Origin: a virus
Lineage: Duplodnaviria; Heunggongvirae; Uroviricota; Caudoviricetes
Virus record (IMG/VR): IMGVR_UViG_2734482550_000011
Direction: 5' to 3' (one strand)
DNA length: 8,511 nt
The notes under the pieces are model-generated. The model saw only the letters and a program-made list of their open reading frames with translations. It was not told the DNA's origin and ran no database searches. The translations under genes and the position numbers were made by a program. Every line of letters starts with the position of its first letter. Within the stretch, counting starts at the first letter, position 1. Of this stretch, positions 1 through 8,511 are shown piece after piece.

Positions 1-3000
1 CGCCTGCTGGTTCAGATACAGCGTAACGGTGGCTGGGTGACGGAAAAAGACATCACCATTAAGGGCAAAACCACCTCGCAGTATCTGGCCTCGGTGGTGG
101 TGGATAACCTGCCGCCGCGCCCGTTTAATATCCGGATGCGCAGAATGACGCCGGACAGCACCACAGACCAGCTGCAGAACAAAACGCTCTGGTCGTCATA
201 CACCGAAATCATCGATGTGAAACAGTGCTACCCGAACACGGCACTGGTCGGCGTACAGGTGGATTCGGAGCAGTTCGGCAGCCAGCAGGTGAGCCGTAAT
301 TATCATCTTCGCGGGCGCATTCTGCAGGTGCCGTCGAACTATAATCCGCAGACGCGGCAATACAGCGGTATCTGGGACGGAACGTTAAAACCGGCATACA
401 GCAACAACATGGCCTGGTGTCTGTGGGATATGCTGACCCATCCGCGCTATGGCATGGGGAAACGTCTTGGTGCGGCAGATGTGGATAAATGGGCGCTGTA
501 TGTCATCGGCCAGTACTGTGACCAGTCGGTGCCGGACGGCTTTGGCAGCACGGAGCCGCGCATCACCTGTAATGCCTGGCTGACCACACAGCGCAAGGCG
601 TGGGATGTGCTCAGTGATTTCTGCTCGGCGATGCGCTGTATGCCGGTATGGAACGGGCAGACGCTGACGTTCGTGCAGGACCGACAGTCGGATAAGGTGT
701 GGGCCTATAACCGCAGTAATGTGGTGATGCCGGATGATGGCGCGCCGTTCCGCTACAGTTTCAGCGCCCTGAAAGACCGCCATAATGCCGTTGAGGTGAA
801 CTGGATTGACCCGGATAACGGCTGGGAGACGGCGACAGAGCTTGTGGAGGATACGCAGGCCATTGTCCGTTACGGTCGTAACGTCACGAAGATGGATGCC
901 TTTGGCTGTACCAGCCGGGGGCAGGCACACCGCGCCGGGCTGTGGCTGATTAAAACGGAACTGCTGGAGACGCAGACCGTGGATTTCAGCGTGGGTGCTG
1001 AAGGGCTTCGTCATGTACCGGGCGATGTCATTGAAATCTGCGATGATGACTATGCCGGTATCCGCACCGGCGGGCGCGTGCTGGCGGTGAACAGCCAGAC
1101 CCGGACGCTGACGCTCGACCGTGAAATCACGCTGCCATCCTCCGGCACCACGCTGATAAGCCTGGTTGACGGGCAGGGGAATCCGGTCAGCGTGGAGGTC
1201 CAGTCCGTCACCGACGGCGTGAAGGTAAAAGTGAGCCGTGTTCCTGACGGTNNNNNNNNNNNNNNNNNNNNNNNNNNNNNNNNNNNNNNNNNNNNNNNNN
1301 NNNNNNNNNNNNNNNNNNNNNNNNNNNNNNNNNNNNNNNNNNNNNNNNNNNNNNNNNNNNNNNNNNNNNNNNNNNNNNNNNNNNNNNNNNNNNNNNNNNN
1401 NNNNNNNNNNNNNNNNNNNNNNNNNNNNNNNNNNNNNNNNNNNNNNNNNNNNNNNNNNNNNNNNNNNNNNNNNNNNNNNNNNNNNNNNNNNNNNNNNNNN
1501 NNNNNNNNNNNNNNNNNNNNNNNNNNNNNNNNNNNNNNNNNNNNNNNNNNNNNNNNNNNNNCTGGTCAGCACGGCCCGGACGACGGAAACCACTTACCGC
1601 TTCACACAACTGGCGCTGGGGAACTACAGGCTGACAGTCCGGGCAGTAAATGCGTGGGGGCAGCAGGGCGATCCGGCGTCGGTATCGTTCCGGATTGCCG
1701 CACCGGCAGCGCTGTCGCGGATTGAGCTGACGCCGGGCTATTTTCAGATAACCGCCACGCCGCATCTTGCGGTTTATGATCCGACGGTACAGTTTGAGTT
1801 CTGGTTCTCGGAAAAGCGGATTGCGGATATCAGGCAGGTTGAAACCACAGCACGCTATCTTGGCACGGCGCTGTACTGGATAGCCGCCAGTATCAATATC
1901 AAACCGGGCCATGATTATTACTTTTATATCCGCAGTGTGAACACCGTTGGCAAATCGGCATTCGTGGAGGCTGTTGGTCAGCCGAGTGATGATGCATCCG
2001 GTTATCTGGATTTTTTCAAAGGCGAGATAGGGAAAACCCATCTGGCTCAGGAGCTGTGGACGCAGATTGATAACGGTCAGCTTGCGCCTGACCTGGCTGA
2101 AATCAGGACGTCCATTACGGATGTCAGCAATGAAATCACGCAGACCGTCAATAAGAAACTGGAAGACCAGAGTGCGGCAATTCAGCAGATACAGAAGGTT
2201 CAGGTTGATACAAATAATAACCTGAACAGCATGTGGGCTGTGAAGCTGCAGCAGATGCAGGACGGACGCCTTTATATCGCGGGTATTGGTGCCGGTATTG
2301 AGAACACCCCTGACGGCATGCAGAGTCAGGTGCTGCTGGCGGCGGACAGGATTGCGATGGTTAATCCTGCGAATGGCAACACAAAACCGATGTTTGTTGG
2401 TCAGGGCGATCAGATATTCATGAACGACGTGTTCCTGAAACGCCTGACGGCCCCCACCATTACCAGCGGTGGAAATCCATCGGCATTTTCCCTGACTCCG
2501 GACGGAAAGCTGACCGCTAAAAATGCGGATATCAGTGGCAGTGTGAATGCGAACGCCGGGACGCTCAACAATGTCACGGTAAATGAAAACTGTACGATTA
2601 AGGGCATGCTGGAGGCGACTCAGGTCAGAGGTGACTTCGTTAAAGCTGTATCCAAATCATTTCCGAAACAGGCTGGTACGTGGGGTAACACGGAAACACC
2701 AAACGGGACGGTTACAGTCACCATAAGCGATGATCATAACTTTGACCGCCAGATTATTATTCCGCCCATTATTTTTAACGGTATAGCGTATGACGATCCG
2801 GGGAGCGGAAATAACCCAGGAGGCACGCGATACACGGGTTATGGTTTTGAAGTTCGCAAAAACGGCGTATTAATCGCATCCAGAGAAACTAAAGGGGCCA
2901 TTCCCGGTAGTTACAGTGCAGTTATTGATATGCCTAGTGGTGGTGGTAGCGTCACTCTGGAGTTTAAGATTTTCCAGAAAGGCAATCAGGGGGCAGGCAA

Positions 3001-3061
3001 TATCACCGACTGTACGGTGATTGTGACCAAAAAAGCGGCTTCCGGCATCAGTATTCGTTGA
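1..3061 (+). CDS. J: Tail tip host-specificity protein J (central tail fibre), 5'-partial, interrupted by N-run 1252-1561
   Basis: Frame 1 is open from position 1 and reads [33 protein letters not shown]..., which I recognise as closely matching lambda J from about residue 140. After the N-run the same protein continues in frame 2 ([36 protein letters not shown]...) and ends ...[10 protein letters not shown] with TGA at 3059-3061. Track ORFs 37..1725 and 1238..3061 are the two halves. Confidence 0.9.
1252..1561. other. N-run (310 nt), assembly gap or masked sequence inside J
   Basis: Uninterrupted n characters. The J frame changes from frame 1 to frame 2 across it, so the N-run length does not equal the true sequence length modulo 3. 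Confidence 0.95.
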
Positions 3062-3083
3062 AATATTTATAACCCCAATAAAT

Positions 3084-3110
3084 GGCGTCAGGAATGACGC
3101 CTTTTTTATT
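3084..3110 (+). terminator. Rho-independent terminator downstream of J
   Basis: Inverted repeat GGCGTCA (3084-3090), loop GGAA, TGACGCC (3095-3101), followed directly by TTTTTTATT, 23 nt after the J stop. Confidence 0.7.
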
Positions 3111-3131
3111 GCAGAAAAGCGAGAGGTAATT

Positions 3132-3940
3132 ATGCGTAAAGTTTGTGCAGCCATTTTGTCCGCAGCCATTTGCCTGGCCGTATCCGGTGCGCCTGCATGG
3201 GCGTCTGAACATCAGTCCACGCTGAGCGCGGGGTATCTTCATGCCCGGACCAACGTTCCCGGCAGTGATGATCTGAACGGGATTAACGTGAAATACCGTT
3301 ATGAGTTTACGGATACGCTGGGGCTGGTGACGTCATTCAGCTATGCAGGAGACAAGAATCGCCAGCTGACCCGTTACAGCGATACCCGCTGGCATGAAGA
3401 TTCCGTGCGTAACCGCTGGTTCAGCGTGATGGCGGGGCCGTCTGTGCGCGTGAATGAATGGTTCAGCGCGTATGCGATGGCGGGTGTGGCTTACAGCCGT
3501 GTGTCGACTTTTTCCGGGGATTATATCCGCGTAACTGACAATAAGGGGAAAACGCACGATGTGCTGACCGGAAGTGATGACGGTCGCCACAGCAACACGT
3601 CTCTGGCGCACTGACGGTTTCATCGTGGGTGTCGGTTANNNNNNNNNNNNNNNNNNNNNNNNNNNNNNNNNNNNNNNNNNNNNNNNNNNNNNNNNNNNNN
3701 NNNNNNNNNNNNNNNNNNNNNNNNNNNNNNNNNNNNNNNNNNNNNNNNNNNNNNNNNNNNNNNNNNNNNNNNNNNNNNNNNNNNNNNNNNNNNNNNNNNN
3801 NNNNNNNNNNNNNNNNNNNNNNNNNNNNNNNNNNNNNNNNCCCGACCGAATCCGTGGCCATTGATATTGCTTATGAAGGCTCCGGCAGTGGCGACTGGCG
3901 CACTGACGGTTTCATCGTGGGTGTCGGTTATAAGTTCTGA
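3132..3940 (+). CDS. lom: Outer-membrane protein Lom (Ail/Lom/OmpX family, lysogenic-conversion moron); interrupted by N-run, first segment ends at premature TGA 3612-3614
   Basis: ATG at 3132 preceded by GAGAGG (3121-3126). Product MRKVCAAILSAAICLAVSGAPAWASEHQSTLSAGYLHARTNVPGSDDLNGINVKYRYEF... is near-identical to lambda Lom as I recall it, with a signal peptide ending AWA. After the N-run the Lom C-terminus PTESVAIDIAYEGSGSGDWRTDGFIVGVGYKF plus TGA (3842-3940) is read in a different frame. Confidence 0.85.
3603..3930 (+). repeat. Exact 36-bp direct repeat (copies 3603-3638 and 3895-3930) flanking the lom N-run
   Basis: CTGGCGCACTGACGGTTTCATCGTGGGTGTCGGTTA occurs just before the N-run and again at the 3' end of lom. 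The first copy joins lom codon ...SLA directly to lom 3'-terminal sequence and creates an in-frame TGA. Confidence 0.9.
3639..3840. other. N-run (202 nt) inside lom
   Basis: Uninterrupted n characters. Intact lambda lom would need only about 24 nt (WGAGVQFN by my recall) between the flanking visible residues. Confidence 0.95.
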
Positions 3941-4004: not shown

Positions 4005-6929
4005 ATGGCAGTAAAGATTTCAGGTGTACTGAAAGACGGCACAGGAAAACCGGTACAGAACTGCACAATCCAGCTGAAAGCAAAACGTAACAGCACCACG
4101 GTGGTGGTGAACACGCTGGCCTCAGAAAATCCGGATGAAGCCGGGCGTTACAGCATGGACGTTGAGTACGGTCAGTACAGCGTTATTCTGTTGGTGGAAG
4201 GATTCCCGCCGTCACATGCCGGGACCATCACTGTGTATGAAGATTCCCGACCCGGTACGCTGAATGATTTTCTCGGTGCCATGACGGAGGATGATGCCCG
4301 TCCGGAGGCACTGCGCCGTTTTGAGCTGATGGTGGAAGAGGTGGCGCGTAACGCGTCCGCGGTGGCACAGAACACGGCAGCCGCGAAGAAATCAGCCAGC
4401 GATGCCAGCACATCAGCCCGTGAGGCGGCAACCCATGCGACTGATGCTGCAGATTCAGCACGTGCAGCCAGCACGTCAGCCGGACAGGCCGCTTCGTCGG
4501 CTCAGTCAGCGTCTTCCAGCGCAGGAACGGCATCAACAAAGGCCACTGAAGCCTCAAAAAGTGCTGCCGCTGCAGAGTCCTCAAAAAGCGCGGCGGCTAC
4601 CAGTGCCGGTGCGGCGAAAACGTTAGAAACGAATGCGGCAGCGTCACAACAATCAGCAGCCACTTCTGCATCCACCGCGACCACGAAAGCGTCAGAAGCT
4701 GCCACCTCAGCCCGGGATGCGTCGGCTTCAAAAGAGGCGGCAAAATCATCAGAAACGAACGCATCATCAAGCGCCAGTAGCGCAGCTTCCTCGGCGACGG
4801 CGGCTGCAAATTCTGCGAAGGCGGCCAAAACGTCCGAGACGAACGCCAGGTCTTCTGAAACGGCAGCGGGACAGAGTGCCTCAGCTGCGGCAGGCTCAAA
4901 AACAGCGGCTGCGTCGTCTGCCAGCGCCGCGTCAACAAGTGCCGGGCAGGCCTCAGCCAGTGCCACCGCCGCCGGAAAATCGGCAGAAAGCGCCGCATCA
5001 TCCGCTTCAACAGCCACAACGAAGGCTGGCGAAGCCACTGAGCAGGCCACGGCAGCAGCGAGGTCAGCTTCCGCAGCGAAGACATCCGAAACGAACGCGA
5101 AAGCGTCGGAAACCCGTGCAGAATCCTCAAAAACGGCTGCCGCATCGTCCGCCAGTTCGGCGGCGTCATCGGCATCATCGGCGTCTGCTTCAAAAGATGA
5201 GGCGACCAGACAGGCGTCAGCAGCGAAGGGCAGCGCCACGACGGCATCCACGAAGGCGACAGAGGCTGCTGGTAGTGCGACGGCAGCNNNNNNNNNNNNN
5301 NNNNNNNNNNNNNNNNNNNNNNNNNNNNNNNNNNNNNNNNNNNNNNNNNNNNNNNNNNNNNNNNNNNNNNNNNNNNNNNNNNNNNNNNNNNNNNNNNNNN
5401 NNNNNNNNNNNNNNNNNNNNNNNNNNNNNNNNNNNNNNNNNNNNNNNNNNNNNNNNNNNNNNNNNNNNNNNNNNNNNNNNNNNNNNNNNNNNNNNNNNNN
5501 NNNNNNNNNNNNNNNNNNNNNNNNNNNNNNNNNNNNNAATCCAGCTAAGCAGCGCGACCAACAGCACGTCTGAAACGCTGGCGGCAACGCCAAAGGCAGT
5601 AAAAGCAGCCAATGACAATGCTGAGAAACGTCTGCAGAAAGATCAGAACGGTGCGGATATCCCTGGCAAAGACACCTTTACGAAAAATATTGGTGCCTGC
5701 CGTGCCTTCGGTGGGTCAGTAAGCACAACAACAGGAAACTGGACGACTGCACAGTTTATCGAGTGGCTGGATTCTCAGGGAGCATTTAACCATCCATACT
5801 GGATGTGCAAGGGTTCCTGGTCTTATGGCAATAATAAAATCATTACTGATACTGGCTGCGGTAATATTCATCTCGCCGGAGCTGTCATTGAAGTAATGGG
5901 GATAAAGTCAGCGATGACGATCCGCATTACCACTCCGACCACATCCAGCGGTGGCGGAACAACCAACGCCCAGTTTACCTATATTAATCACGGAACAGAT
6001 TATTCACCTGGCTGGCGAAGGGACTATAACTCCAGAAATAAGCCAACGGCATCAGAGATCGGGGCGCTACCGTCAGGTGGAACAGCAGTATCATCAGTTA
6101 ATCTGGCTTCAAAAGGTCGGGTAGCCGCGCTGACAGACAATACGCAGGGGGCAGCAGGTCTTGAGTTATACGAGGTGTATAACAACGGATATCCAACAGC
6201 GTATGGAAATATCATTCACCTGAAAGGGATGACAGCCGTTGGCGAAGGTGAGTTACTCATCGGCTGGAGTGGTACAAGCGGTGCTCATGCTCCGGCATTT
6301 ATTCGTTCACGACGGGATACGACCGACGCAAACTGGTCGCCGTGGGCGCAGCTTTACACCTCGGCTCATCCTCCTGCAGAGTTTTATCCAGTCGGTGCAC
6401 CAATCCCGTGGCCATCAGATACCGTTCCGTCTGGTTATGCCCTGATGCAGGGGCAGACTTTTGACAAATCTGCTTACCCGAAACTTGCAGCCGCTTATCC
6501 GTCAGGCGTGATCCCTGATATGCGTGGCTGGACGATTAAGGGCAAGCCCGCCAGTGGTCGTGCCGTATTGTCTCAGGAACAGGATGGCATTAAATCGCAC
6601 ACCCACAGCGCCAGCGCATCCAGTACGGATTTGGGGACGAAAACCACATCGTCGTTTGATTACGGCACTAAATCCACGAATAACACCGGGGCGCATACGC
6701 ACAGTCTGAGCGGCTCTACAAGTTCAGCTGGGGCCCACCAACATAGTCAGACTGGGCCCAGAACGAATAGCGGGAGTCAACCTACTGGAATGTTTCCGGC
6801 AGGGAGTACTCAAGTTAGCGGGACTAATCAGGTTGGTATCAGTGGCTCATTAACCAGTGGCACCTCCCAATGGGTAGGTAAATCATCTTCAGAAGGAAAC
6901 CATACACACTCACTGTCCGGCACAGCAGC
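4005..6929 (+). CDS. stf: Side tail fibre protein Stf (long variant); internal N-run 5288-5537; 3' end lies inside N-run 6930-7191
   Basis: ATG at 4005 (the track starts at an upstream in-frame GTG 3999) preceded by GGGG. N-terminus [26 protein letters not shown]... matches lambda Stf as I recall it, followed by Ala/Ser-rich repeats. After the N-run the protein continues in frame 1 from about 5539 ([22 protein letters not shown]...) to the conserved Stf C-terminal region [15 protein letters not shown]...SHTHSASAS...GAHTHSLSG...[11 protein letters not shown], which runs into the next N-run. Confidence 0.85.
4380..5287 (+). repeat. Imperfect tandem coding repeats (Ala/Ser/Thr-rich, recurring K-T/S-SETNA units) within stf
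   Basis: Recurring units such as [35 protein letters not shown] and [19 protein letters not shown], with matching DNA repeats (for example gaaacgaacgc at several positions). The array continues into N-run 5288-5537. Confidence 0.8.
5288..5537. other. N-run (250 nt) inside the stf repeat region
   Basis: Uninterrupted n characters. Stf frame changes from frame 0 to frame 1 across it. Confidence 0.95.
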
Positions 6930-7191
6930 NNNNNNNNNNNNNNNNNNNNNNNNNNNNNNNNNNNNNNNNNNNNNNNNNNNNNNNNNNNNNNNNNNNNNNN
7001 NNNNNNNNNNNNNNNNNNNNNNNNNNNNNNNNNNNNNNNNNNNNNNNNNNNNNNNNNNNNNNNNNNNNNNNNNNNNNNNNNNNNNNNNNNNNNNNNNNNN
7101 NNNNNNNNNNNNNNNNNNNNNNNNNNNNNNNNNNNNNNNNNNNNNNNNNNNNNNNNNNNNNNNNNNNNNNNNNNNNNNNNNNNNNNNNNNN
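6930..7191. other. N-run (262 nt) covering the stf 3' end and tfa 5' end
   Basis: Uninterrupted n characters. By my recall of lambda, about 60 Stf residues and 32 Tfa residues are missing, about 276 nt, which is compatible with the run length. Confidence 0.95.
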
Positions 7192-7679
7192 TTCCGCCTC
7201 ATACAGGTCTGCCTGCAAACAGTACCGATATTGCACCGCCAGATATTCCGGCTGGTTTCGTGGCTGTTTTCAACAGTGATGAGTCATCGTGGCATCTCGT
7301 TGAAGATCATCGGGGTAAAACGGTTTATGACGTGGCTTCCGGCGACGCGTTATTTATTTCTGAACTCGGCTCATTACCGGAAAATGTCACCTGGTTATCC
7401 CCGGAAGGGGAGTTTCAGAAGTGGAACGGCACAGCCTGGGTGAAGGATACGGAAGCAGAAAAACTGTTCCGGATCCGGGAGGCGGAAGAAACAAAAAACA
7501 GCCTGATGCAGGTAGCCAGTGAGCATATAGCGCCGCTTCAGGATGCTGTGGATCTGGAGATCGCAACGGAGAAAGAAACCTTGTTGCTGGAAGCTTGGAA
7601 AAAGTATCGGGTGTTGCTGAACCGTGTTGATACATCAACTGCACCGGATATTGAATGGCCAGTAGCACCTATAGGGTAA
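7192..7679 (+). CDS. tfa: Tail fibre assembly protein Tfa (chaperone), 5'-partial, start hidden in N-run
   Basis: Frame 0 from 7194 reads [59 protein letters not shown]...[21 protein letters not shown] with TAA at 7677-7679, near-identical to lambda Tfa from about residue 33 as I recall it. The track ORF 7260..7679 is its tail, starting at an internal GTG. Confidence 0.85.
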
Positions 7680-7760
7680 ATTCGTAATGATTACCTAAAT
7701 ACGTTATTCTTTTGTTAAAAAAGTGATTTTGCTATAGGTAGGGAGTATGTTCTTGGATTA

Positions 7761-7795
7761 AGAATAAAAAATCGCCATGAAAGAGCTTCATGGCG
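7761..7795 (-). terminator. Rho-independent terminator for a leftward (minus-strand) transcript
   Basis: On the minus strand, stem CGCCATGAA, loop GCTCT, TTCATGGCG (plus coordinates 7773-7795), followed by ATTTTTTATTCTT. A 9-bp GC-rich stem in otherwise AT-rich DNA. On the + strand the hairpin is not followed by a T-run. Confidence 0.55.
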
Positions 7796-7944
7796 AGTAC
7801 ATAAACGTACAAAATGTGATGAAAGTAGAGTGGCGTAAGCCACTATATTAAGATATGACAATAGCGAAGAAAAGTAAATAACATTTTATGGACGTTTAAT
7901 TGTTAATTATAAAAACTAGAGTGCCCGATATTGTTTATCTTGCT

Positions 7945-8046
7945 TTAAAATAATGTACTCAAACCAAATTTTTGAGCTAAAAGCTCAAATAATATAAATG
8001 CAATAATAATGTTTAATAAGACAATTAGCTTGCTTTGTATTTTCAT
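7945..8046 (-). CDS. Hypothetical 33-aa hydrophobic small protein (MKIQSKLIVLLNIIIAFILFELLAQKFGLSTLF)
   Basis: Minus-strand ATG at 8046 to TAA at 7945, below the track's ORF size cutoff. Basic N-terminus followed by about 20 hydrophobic residues (one predicted TM helix or a signal peptide). It lies between a promoter-like motif and the minus-strand terminator. No clear Shine-Dalgarno; could equally be the signal-peptide remnant of a decayed gene. Confidence 0.2.
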   Translation of the reverse strand: MKIQSKLIVLLNIIIAFILFELLAQKFGLSTLF

Positions 8047-8080
8047 TTCGGAATACTGTTAAGTAACTTTGATGACCCTA

Positions 8081-8109
8081 ACAATAGATCGGAATTTTCT
8101 TAGAGTCAA
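8081..8109 (-). promoter_or_regulatory. Candidate sigma70 promoter for the leftward small transcription unit
   Basis: Minus strand TTGACT (plus 8104-8109), 17-nt spacer, TATTGT (plus 8081-8086), about 35 nt upstream of the small-ORF ATG. Such motifs arise easily by chance in AT-rich DNA. Confidence 0.2.
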
Positions 8110-8428
8110 TGGTCACTGTTTTTGCTTGCAAAGCAAATGTTTTGGTGGTTATAAGTCGTCTTAATATAGTCACGCATGCAACTTGTTCCATGCGGAGATT
8201 AAAGATTGGAATATAACGCGAAGATGGAATTAAATTACATTTGCAATAATTAATTTATTATTACTCAATAATTACCGATATTATTATTGTAAATTAATCA
8301 TTAGAATGCAAAAAGAAATGTAACGGCAAAATAAGAGGACGATAGCTGAGAAAAAAGCGTGCTTTCCCAATCTGGGGCAAATCACGTCTGAATGACACCT
8401 GAAAACAGGTGGTAGCCTCAAGAAGGCT

Positions 8429-8511
8429 GGTGATGCTGCCAACTTACTGATTTAGTGTATGATGGTGTTTTTGAGGTGCTCCAGTGGCTTCTGTTTCTAT
8501 CAGCTGTCCCT
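8429..8511 (+). mobile_element. IS1 insertion sequence, left end (partial, continues beyond the window)
   Basis: GGTGATGCTGCCAACTTACTGATTTAGTGTATGATGGTGTTTTTGAGGTGCTCCAGTGGCTTCTGTTTCTATCAGCTGTCCCT matches the IS1 left terminus as I recall it, including the terminal inverted repeat GGTGATGCTGCCAACTTACTGAT. Confidence 0.85.
8484..8511 (+). CDS. insA: IS1 InsA, N-terminal 9 codons (3'-partial)
   Basis: GTG at 8484 followed by GCT TCT GTT TCT ATC AGC TGT CCC, encoding (M)ASVSISCP, the InsA N-terminus as I recall it. Confidence 0.75.

What the first reader, a model, noticed from the sequence alone, without database searches (positions are those of the whole stretch)
8429..8511. IS1 inserted at the prophage cargo position directly after the AT-rich tract
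The window ends with a canonical IS1 left end, with insA on the + strand. IS1 favours AT-rich targets and makes 8-9 bp target duplications. Its insertion may have cut off whatever cargo gene or regulatory region originally followed the AT-rich tract, and could supply outward transcription or homology for rearrangements. It also suggests an IS-rich host such as Shigella or certain E. coli lineages.
Basis: partly seen in the sequence, partly recalled or inferred. Interest (0 to 1): 0.4.

Follow-up and report, generated by a model that had tools for sequence, protein, structure and literature searches.

The report
IS1 copy with flanking deletion in prophage
The last 83 bases of the window are the left end of the common insertion sequence IS1; in related genomes this same inherited copy sits in the cargo region of a lambda-like prophage without the usual target duplication, because DNA next to it was deleted, which is well-known IS1 behaviour.

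Summary
Window 8429-8511 is 83/83 identical to the first 83 bp of IS1A of E. coli K-12, covering the 23-bp left inverted repeat, a promoter-like site and the first 9 codons of insA on the + strand. The window stops inside IS1, as nine of 12 related draft contigs do, which points to an assembly break in a repeat.

The same junction (…AAGAAGGCT|GGTGATGCTG…) is present in 79 of 5,426 complete E. coli genomes. There the element is a complete 768-bp IS1 in the region after the tail fibre genes of a lambda-like prophage, at att-lambda next to ybhB-bioA in most of the examples inspected.

The predicted 9-bp target duplication does not exist. No genome carries IS1 followed by AAGAAGGCT. IS-free relatives, including the phages mEp332, PhiR70_1 and ev099, have 550 bp where IS1 sits. 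That stretch is non-coding, contains a 62-bp tRNA-Ser (serU) fragment, and lies upstream of a prophage AraC-type regulator that is probably PatE.

With the same left junction there are four right junctions, deleting 550, 741, 1506 or 1560 bp. The last two remove the regulator. Other genomes keep the right junction with a different left flank.

This is ordinary IS1 biology: one old inherited insertion followed by adjacent deletions. It says nothing about an IS-rich host. Interest is low.

The parts
8429..8511 (+). Left end of IS1 (positions 1-83 of the 768-bp element); the window ends inside it
   Evidence: 83/83 identical to K-12 IS1A. Annotated as an IS1A family transposase in the complete genomes that share the junction.
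8429..8451 (+). IS1 left terminal inverted repeat (IRL), 23 bp
   Evidence: Only match to the IS1 inverted-repeat pattern in the window; 0 matches in 200 shuffles.
8436..8463 (+). Promoter-like site (CTGCCA-16-TATGAT) inside and just after IRL, placed where the insA promoter is expected
   Evidence: Consensus scan, 9 of 12 matches (the same site in L001). That it functions as the insA promoter is inferred from published IS1 knowledge recalled from memory; it was not tested.
8484..8511 (+). Start of insA (GTG start, 9 codons: M/V-ASVSISCP), cut off by the window end
   Evidence: Position matches the K-12 insA1 annotation. The full ORF in relative L001 gives Pfam Zn_ribbon_InsA and HTH_Tnp_IS1.
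8420..8428 (+). AAGAAGGCT, the 9 bp abutting IRL; the candidate original target, but not duplicated at the right end in any relative
   Evidence: Single copy in the window. In IS-free alleles it is followed directly by TGGAATATT or TGAAATATT. No genome has IS1 followed by AAGAAGGCT.
8344..8428 (.). About 85 bp of non-AT-rich flank before IS1; a module also found at the cargo end of other lambdoid prophages
   Evidence: In one search, query positions 216-300 (window 8344-8428) match other genomes at 94-100% in the rows listed; two contexts were inspected.
7680..8343 (.). AT-rich non-coding tract between the tail fibre assembly gene and the IS1 flank (context)
   Evidence: GC about 0.28-0.33. 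Conserved at 98.5-99.2% in the IS-free phages mEp332, PhiR70_1 and ev099.
7192..7679 (+). 3' part of the tail fibre assembly gene (context; its start lies in the scaffold gap 6930-7191)
   Evidence: Aligns to L001 8593-9080, which is annotated as a tail fiber assembly protein.

Best explanation
The window ends in a resident, vertically inherited copy of IS1 that lies in the cargo region of a lambda-like prophage. IS1 entered the non-coding spacer between the AT-rich tract and a prophage AraC-type regulator that is probably PatE. In the allele that became common, IS1 replaces 550 bp of that spacer, so there is no target-site duplication. That IS1 itself removed the 550 bp, by intramolecular transposition of one end into nearby DNA (an adjacent deletion), is inferred. 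The same copy later produced further deletions from both ends. Rightwards these reach up to or through the regulator gene. Leftwards, in the one case traced, they run into prophage lysis and porin genes.

Shown here: the identity with IS1, the complete element in relatives, the missing duplication, the 550-bp difference from IS-free phages and prophages, and the series of nested endpoints. Inferred: the transpositional mechanism of the deletions, which side was the original insertion site, and what lies beyond 8511 in this particular genome. The 550-bp-deletion allele is the most probable there, because 67 of the 79 genomes with the left junction carry it. The window stops at base 83 of IS1 because draft assemblies break in repeated IS copies.
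For: - Identity: 83/83 to K-12 IS1A.
- Complete element in relatives: 768 bp, with InsA and InsB' domains (Pfam Zn_ribbon_InsA, HTH_Tnp_IS1, DDE_Tnp_IS1; NCBIfam transpos_IS1) and the A6C frameshift motif at IS1 position 307.
- Location: the arrangement is J, lom, tail fibre, tail fibre assembly, AT-rich tract, IS1, AraC regulator, IS3 remnants, then a lambda-type att sequence (recognised by eye) and ybhB-bioA.
- Junction counts: the left junction is in 79 genomes. Both junctions of the 550-bp-deletion allele are in 67 of the 100 genomes that have either junction.
- No duplication: the left flank is AAGAAGGCT and the right flank is CTTATTGGC. The intermediate that would carry the duplication is found in 0 of 5,426 genomes.
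- IS-free state: alleles L014 and L015 and phage mEp332 carry exactly 550 bp between the two flanks. 440 of those bp are shared with a separate O157:H7 prophage module, so the IS-free state is ancestral.
- Nested right junctions: with the identical left junction there are four right junctions, deleting 550, 741, 1506 and 1560 bp.
- Variable left flank: with the 550-bp-type right junction, one genome has IS1 abutting a prophage porin gene, which is a leftward loss of about 3.6 kb relative to L024. Another has unrelated DNA on the left.
- Single origin: the copies at this locus share SNPs that distinguish them from K-12 IS1A, at position 262 in all copies and at 444 and 757 in most.
- Assembly break: nine of 12 IMG/VR contigs with the junction stop 31-331 bp into IS1, seven of them within 98 bp. 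One of these, L012, differs from the window by 3 mismatches.
- Literature: absence of target duplications is attributed to adjacent deletion or IS-IS recombination (PMC11708052).
Against: - The window holds only 83 bp of IS1, so its own right end and right flank were never seen. No complete genome is closer than about 98% to the window's tail fibre region.
- Sequence alone cannot separate a transpositional adjacent deletion from homologous recombination between two IS1 copies.
- No intermediate with a duplication was found on either side, so the order of events is not established.
- The IS1 copies at the locus are mosaic in their SNPs, which suggests some gene conversion or recombination with other IS1 copies.
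Confidence: 0.88

Rival explanations
1. A simple, recent IS1 insertion with a 9-bp duplication of AAGAAGGCT and nothing deleted.
For: AAGAAGGCT abuts IRL, and in IS-free alleles the sequence is colinear right up to that point. The window itself cannot exclude this reading, because it ends at IS1 base 83.
Against: No complete E. coli genome of 5,426 has IS1 followed by AAGAAGGCT TGGAATATT. All 79 genomes with this left junction that were classified have a deleted right side.
Confidence: 0.03
2. The missing duplication and the lost DNA come from RecA-dependent recombination between two directly oriented IS1 copies that had inserted separately, not from transpositional adjacent deletion.
For: This route gives the same end product and is a recognised cause of missing duplications (PMC11708052). 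The IS1 copies at the locus have mosaic SNP patterns; for example, L023 and L026 carry the canonical G at position 757. Many carrier genomes have tens of IS1 copies.
Against: It needs a separate second IS1 insertion, in the same orientation, for each of at least four right endpoints and at least two left endpoints. No two-copy intermediate turned up among the genomes inspected.
Confidence: 0.2
3. IS1 first inserted at the right-hand site (…GTGTCTTA|CTTATTGGC…), and the window's left junction is itself the product of a 550-bp deletion from the left end of IS1.
For: The right junction of the 550-bp-deletion type is at least as widespread as the left one: 101 genomes against 79. Leftward deletions from IRL are documented at this locus.
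Against: Neither polarity has an intermediate. The left junction is kept through four different right endpoints, which shows that rightward deletions are at least as frequent.
Confidence: 0.3
4. The IS1 sequence at the window end is an assembly or scaffolding artefact, a chimeric contig end.
For: The window is a scaffold whose N-runs do not have true lengths, and a 38-bp stretch is duplicated across one gap. It also ends inside a repeat.
Against: The identical junction is present in 79 closed genomes and 12 independent IMG/VR contigs.
Confidence: 0.02

Closest known systems
IS1 (IS1A/IS1R type) of Escherichia coli K-12
   Same: The visible 83 bp are identical. In relatives the element is 768 bp with a 23-bp IRL and IRR, insA, insB', the A6C frameshift site and the expected InsA and DDE domains.
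   Different: There is no 9-bp target duplication at this copy. The copies at this locus differ from K-12 IS1A by 3-8 SNPs, including a G-to-C change inside IRR at position 757 in most.
IS1-promoted adjacent deletions (classical gal/IS1 deletion series; named from memory, not read here)
   Same: One IS end stays fixed while the neighbouring DNA is lost to variable endpoints, the IS is retained and no duplication remains. Here there are four right endpoints with one left junction, plus leftward losses.
   Different: The series is seen here as natural polymorphism among E. coli prophages rather than in a selection experiment. The transpositional mechanism is inferred.
IS-free cargo region of lambdoid phages mEp332, PhiR70_1 and ev099
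   Same: The same AT-rich tract at 98.5-99.2% identity up to exactly window 8428 in all three. In mEp332, which was read further, the same downstream AraC regulator and IS3 remnant follow.
   Different: They have no IS1. mEp332 carries the 550-bp spacer that the IS1 allele lacks.
PatE/PsrA/PsrB prophage-encoded AraC-like regulators of EHEC O157:H7 (review PMC10877973)
   Same: The gene downstream of IS1 in relatives is a 247-aa AraC-family protein. Its best NCBIfam matches are YdeO and GadX, both below the curated cut-offs. It differs by 1 residue from the protein of an O157:H7 prophage at about 0.37 Mb.
   Different: This gene is not in the window. Its identity with PatE (z0321) rests on genomic position and family only and was not checked against the published sequence.

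Membership tests
IS1 family insertion sequence | Terminal inverted repeats of about 23 bp (IRL GGTGATGCTGCCAACTTACTGAT) | tested here: met
   IRL is at window 8429-8451 with no mismatch to the pattern, and 0 hits occur in shuffles. IRR was seen only in relatives, where it matches IRL at 17 of 23 positions by hand comparison of the sequence.
IS1 family insertion sequence | Near-identity to a reference IS1 over the available length | tested here: met
   83/83 to K-12 IS1A.
IS1 family insertion sequence | insA (zinc ribbon plus HTH) followed by insB' (DDE), joined by a -1 frameshift at A6C | tested here: met
   The window holds only the first 9 codons of insA. In relatives with the same junction, Pfam gives PF03811, PF12759 and PF03400, NCBIfam gives NF033558, and A6C lies at position 307.
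IS1 family insertion sequence | Element length of about 768 bp with a proper right end | tested here: met
   768 bp in L001, L004, L010, L016, L022, L023, L025 and L026; 767 bp (frameshifted) in L024. This cannot be tested in the window itself.
IS1 family insertion sequence | 8-10 bp (usually 9) direct target duplication flanking the element | tested here: not met
   The left flank is AAGAAGGCT; the right flank is CTTATTGGC, AATTGGGTG, GTTCTTGCC or CTGACGTCG. No genome has the duplicated form. The flanking deletion explains this, and a missing duplication does not exclude membership for a rearranged copy.
IS-mediated adjacent deletion | The deletion starts exactly at an IS end, the IS is retained, and endpoints vary among relatives that share the other junction | tested here: met
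   Deletions of 550, 741, 1506 and 1560 bp relative to the IS-free allele L015, all with the same left junction.
IS-mediated adjacent deletion | Dependence on transposase and independence of RecA | not testable with these tools
   This needs genetics.

The most novel reading that the evidence does not exclude
The IS1 copy may act as a regulatory switch for the PatE-like AraC regulator. In the 550-bp-deletion allele it separates the gene from the upstream AT-rich, presumably H-NS-silenced tract. In the 741-bp-deletion allele it replaces the promoter region, leaving 15 bp including the ribosome-binding region, so that expression would depend on transcription reading out of IS1. Natural E. coli lineages would then differ in prophage-driven control of acid resistance because of this one IS.
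Probability: 0.1. Interest if true: 0.3.

Novelty: already known. Interest (0 to 1): 0.1.

Why it matters
This finding matters little beyond annotation. It explains why the contig ends where it does. It also warns that what follows the junction in this strain cannot be assumed, because relatives carry at least four different right junctions and two of them lack the regulator gene. Finally, it gives a clean natural example of one IS1 copy eroding a prophage cargo region from both of its ends. A possible effect on a PatE-like acid-resistance regulator is the only biologically interesting thread, and it lies outside the window.

Tried and rejected
- The junction was searched in genome contigs and gave no hit, so the source contig could not be extended. 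IMG/VR gave 12 contigs, but nine stop inside IS1.
- The count for the 741-bp-deletion right junction is unusable, because the tool joined the two 90-bp pieces of 550-bp-deletion genomes into one place. The figure of 128 is therefore not a count of that allele.
- The difference between 79 genomes with the left junction and 101 with the right one was first put down to a 1-bp deletion at the junction in strain D10. The combined query showed that real left-only and right-only classes exist.
- ARAGORN finds no tRNA in the 550-bp segment. It is a 62-bp 3' fragment of serU and not a gene. The Rfam hits there (tmRNA, a plastid UTR) reflect that tRNA-like fragment.
- The repeat finder did not report the IS1 terminal repeats, which are imperfect, and found no flanking direct repeat.
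- The PatE paper (PMC3416394) is not held in the library, so identity of the regulator with PatE rests on a review and on genomic position.
- No complete genome matches the window's tail fibre region at more than about 98%, so the right junction of the source strain could not be predicted from a clonal relative.

Full report
**1. The observation**

The last 83 bases of the window (8429-8511) begin with GGTGATGCTGCCAACTTACTGAT and run on through GTGGCTTCTGTTTCTATCAGCTGTCCCT. I fetched the annotated IS1A of E. coli K-12 MG1655 (NC_000913.3 19796-20563). The 83 bases are identical to its positions 1-83.

A degenerate pattern for the IS1 terminal repeat matches the window only at 8429-8451 on the + strand, with no hit in 200 shuffles. 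From the K-12 annotation, insA starts at IS1 position 56, which is the GTG at window 8484. The window therefore carries nine insA codons on the + strand. A promoter-like site lies at 8436-8463.

One correction: the roughly 85 bp directly in front of IS1 (8344-8428) are of ordinary composition. The AT-rich tract proper is about 7680-8343.

**2. Surroundings**

The window reads as the end of a lambdoid prophage tail module: the host-specificity protein J, lom, a long side tail fibre gene and a tail fibre assembly gene that ends at 7679. About 750 bp without a convincing gene follow.

In the complete genome of E. coli O78 strain 3 (locus L001) the same arrangement continues as follows: a full IS1, an AraC-family regulator, remnants of an IS3-family element, a lambda-type att sequence (recognised by eye), and then ybhB-bioA. 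That places this prophage at att-lambda.

The window is a scaffold. Its four N-runs do not have the true lengths when compared with the near-identical IMG/VR contig L012, which differs by 3 mismatches. One gap in lom is flanked by a duplicated 38-bp stretch.

Nine of the 12 IMG/VR contigs that contain the exact junction stop 31-331 bp into IS1, seven of them within 98 bp. The window's end at IS1 base 83 is therefore best read as an assembly break in a repeat. This is an inference.

**3. Extension and the target duplication**

- The 166-bp junction (83 bp of flank plus 83 bp of IS1) is present in 79 of 5,426 complete E. coli genomes.
- In all relatives examined the element is a complete IS1 of 767-768 bp with a proper right end.
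- It has intact InsA and InsB' domains and the A6C frameshift motif at position 307.
- There is no duplication. The left flank is AAGAAGGCT, and the right flank in the common allele is CTTATTGGC.
- A query made of the IS1 right end followed by AAGAAGGCT plus the sequence that follows it in IS-free alleles found no genome.

**4. What was interrupted**

An artificial "empty site" query found genomes in which both flanks lie 550 bp apart with no IS1 (loci L014 and L015). The isolated lambdoid phages mEp332, PhiR70_1 and ev099 match the tract up to exactly window 8428, and mEp332 carries the same 550 bp.

The 550 bp hold no ORF above 69 aa and no complete tRNA. They do contain an exact 62-bp copy of the 3' part of tRNA-Ser(CGA) serU at L015 3411-3472. 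That fragment is exactly where homology begins to an O157:H7 prophage that carries the same regulator (98.9% over 1.87 kb). I read it as an old attachment-site scar at the edge of the regulator module. Because the O157:H7 module and the IS-free lambda-like allele share 440 of the 550 bp, the IS-free state is ancestral and the IS1 allele is the derived one.

The regulator is 247 aa long. Its best NCBIfam matches are YdeO and GadX, both below the curated cut-offs. It differs by one residue from the O157:H7 protein. It is probably the PatE type of prophage AraC-like acid-resistance regulator described in PMC10877973. That identification rests on position and family only.

**5. A deletion series**

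A combined query for both junctions found 100 genomes with at least one of them. Of these, 67 have both, and the rest fall into left-only and right-only classes.

With the identical left junction I found four right junctions:

- 550 bp deleted (L001, L016). This is the common allele.
- 741 bp deleted (L004, L024). IS1 ends 15 bp before the regulator's ATG.
- 1506 bp deleted (L023). The regulator is gone.
- 1560 bp deleted (L022). The deletion runs into the IS3 remnant.

With the 550-bp-type right junction, the left flank can differ. In L025 it is the 5' part of a prophage porin gene, a loss of about 3.6 kb of lysis genes, iss/bor, the tail fibre assembly remnant and the AT-rich tract relative to L024. 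In L026 it is unrelated DNA.

The copies at this locus share SNPs against K-12 IS1A, at position 262 in all copies and at 444 and 757 in most. This fits a single origin. The pattern is mosaic, however.

**6. Mechanism**

The pattern has four features: one end of the IS fixed, variable endpoints in the adjacent DNA, the IS retained and no duplication. This is what IS1-promoted adjacent deletion (intramolecular transposition) produces. IS1 is the classical example of it; that attribution is established knowledge recalled from memory.

PMC11708052 lists adjacent deletion and IS-IS recombination as the two usual causes of missing duplications. Recombination between two separately inserted IS1 copies gives the same product and cannot be excluded from sequence. 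It is less parsimonious, because each endpoint would need its own second insertion in the same orientation.

Which junction marks the original insertion also cannot be decided, because no intermediate exists in the data.

For this window's genome the most probable continuation is the 550-bp-deletion allele. It accounts for 67 of the 79 genomes with the left junction, and the nearest complete relatives that carry IS1 have it. This remains a guess.

**7. Possible consequences (inferred, not tested)**

A 10-of-12 promoter-like site (TTGGCA-18-TATACT) lies in the 206 bp retained upstream of the regulator in the 550-bp-deletion allele. It is lost in the 741-bp-deletion allele. IS1 points toward the regulator gene. 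Read-through or hybrid-promoter effects and interruption of silencing are possible, but no evidence was gathered for them.

**8. Comparison, novelty and verdict**

This is IS1, with all family features met except the target duplication, whose absence the flanking deletion explains.

The host inference is not supported. A query half made of this IS1 end finds matches in 4,997 of 5,426 E. coli genomes, with a median of 10 places, almost all to the IS1 half. Carriers of this junction range from 3 to 40 places.

The finding is real, correctly recognised and ordinary. It is wrong about the duplication, the loss of a cargo gene in the common allele, and the host.

Novelty: already known. Interest: 0.1.

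Noticed in passing
window 1252-1560, 3639-3840, 5288-5537, 6930-7191: The four N-runs are scaffold gaps and not masked sequence of true length. Against the near-identical contig L012 they are off by +32, about -256, +2 and -12 bp. The 38 bp at 3601-3638 are repeated at 3901-3938 across the gap inside lom, which is an unmerged overlap.
   Followed up: partly
window 7758-7885, - strand: A weak MicC-like Rfam match (22.8 bits, E 0.83; 25.5 bits in the IS-free allele L015). It ends in a strong intrinsic terminator at 7796-7772 with an 11-bp stem and a T-run. This could be a prophage-encoded small RNA in the AT-rich tract. It is far below the gathering score, so it is only a lead.
   Followed up: no
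window 7945-8046, - strand: A 33-aa hydrophobic ORF (MKIQSKLIVLLNIIIAFILFELLAQKFGLSTLF) overlaps a terminator-like hairpin at 7989-7971. It is conserved in the IS-free allele (L015 2817-2918). It may be a small membrane peptide or toxin-like gene.
   Followed up: no
window 8344-8428: The 85 bp before IS1 recur at 94-100% identity (rows listed) at the cargo end of other lambdoid prophages. Examples are after three DUF1076 (NleG-like) genes near uspF/ompN in strain 97-3250, and near zinT in EC17CM6. They partly overlap a small ORF annotated as 'capsid protein'.
   Followed up: partly
L015 3411-3472 (IS-free allele; absent from the window): An exact 62-bp copy of the 3' part of tRNA-Ser(CGA) serU marks the left border of the AraC-regulator module shared with an O157:H7 prophage. 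It looks like an attachment-site scar of a serU-integrating element now embedded in a lambda-like phage genome.
   Followed up: yes
L001 10586 (IS1 position 757, inside IRR): Most IS1 copies at this locus carry a G-to-C change inside the right inverted repeat (GTTCGAGTC instead of GTTGGAGTC). In one search only 95 records reach 99% identity or more, which suggests the change is rare among other IS1 copies. Whether it affects transposition is unknown.
   Followed up: partly
L016 3322/3323 (strain D10): One complete genome has a 1-bp deletion exactly at the flank/IS1 junction (AAGAAGGC|GGTGATG). This is either a real change or a sequencing error.
   Followed up: no
L023 (ETEC1746), L014 (S43): The tail fibre assembly, AT-rich tract and IS3-remnant block also occurs in prophages at other chromosomal sites: next to intS and tRNA-Arg in L023 (where the regulator is deleted), and next to paoD in L014 (where it is present). 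This shows modular exchange of this cargo region among prophages.
   Followed up: no
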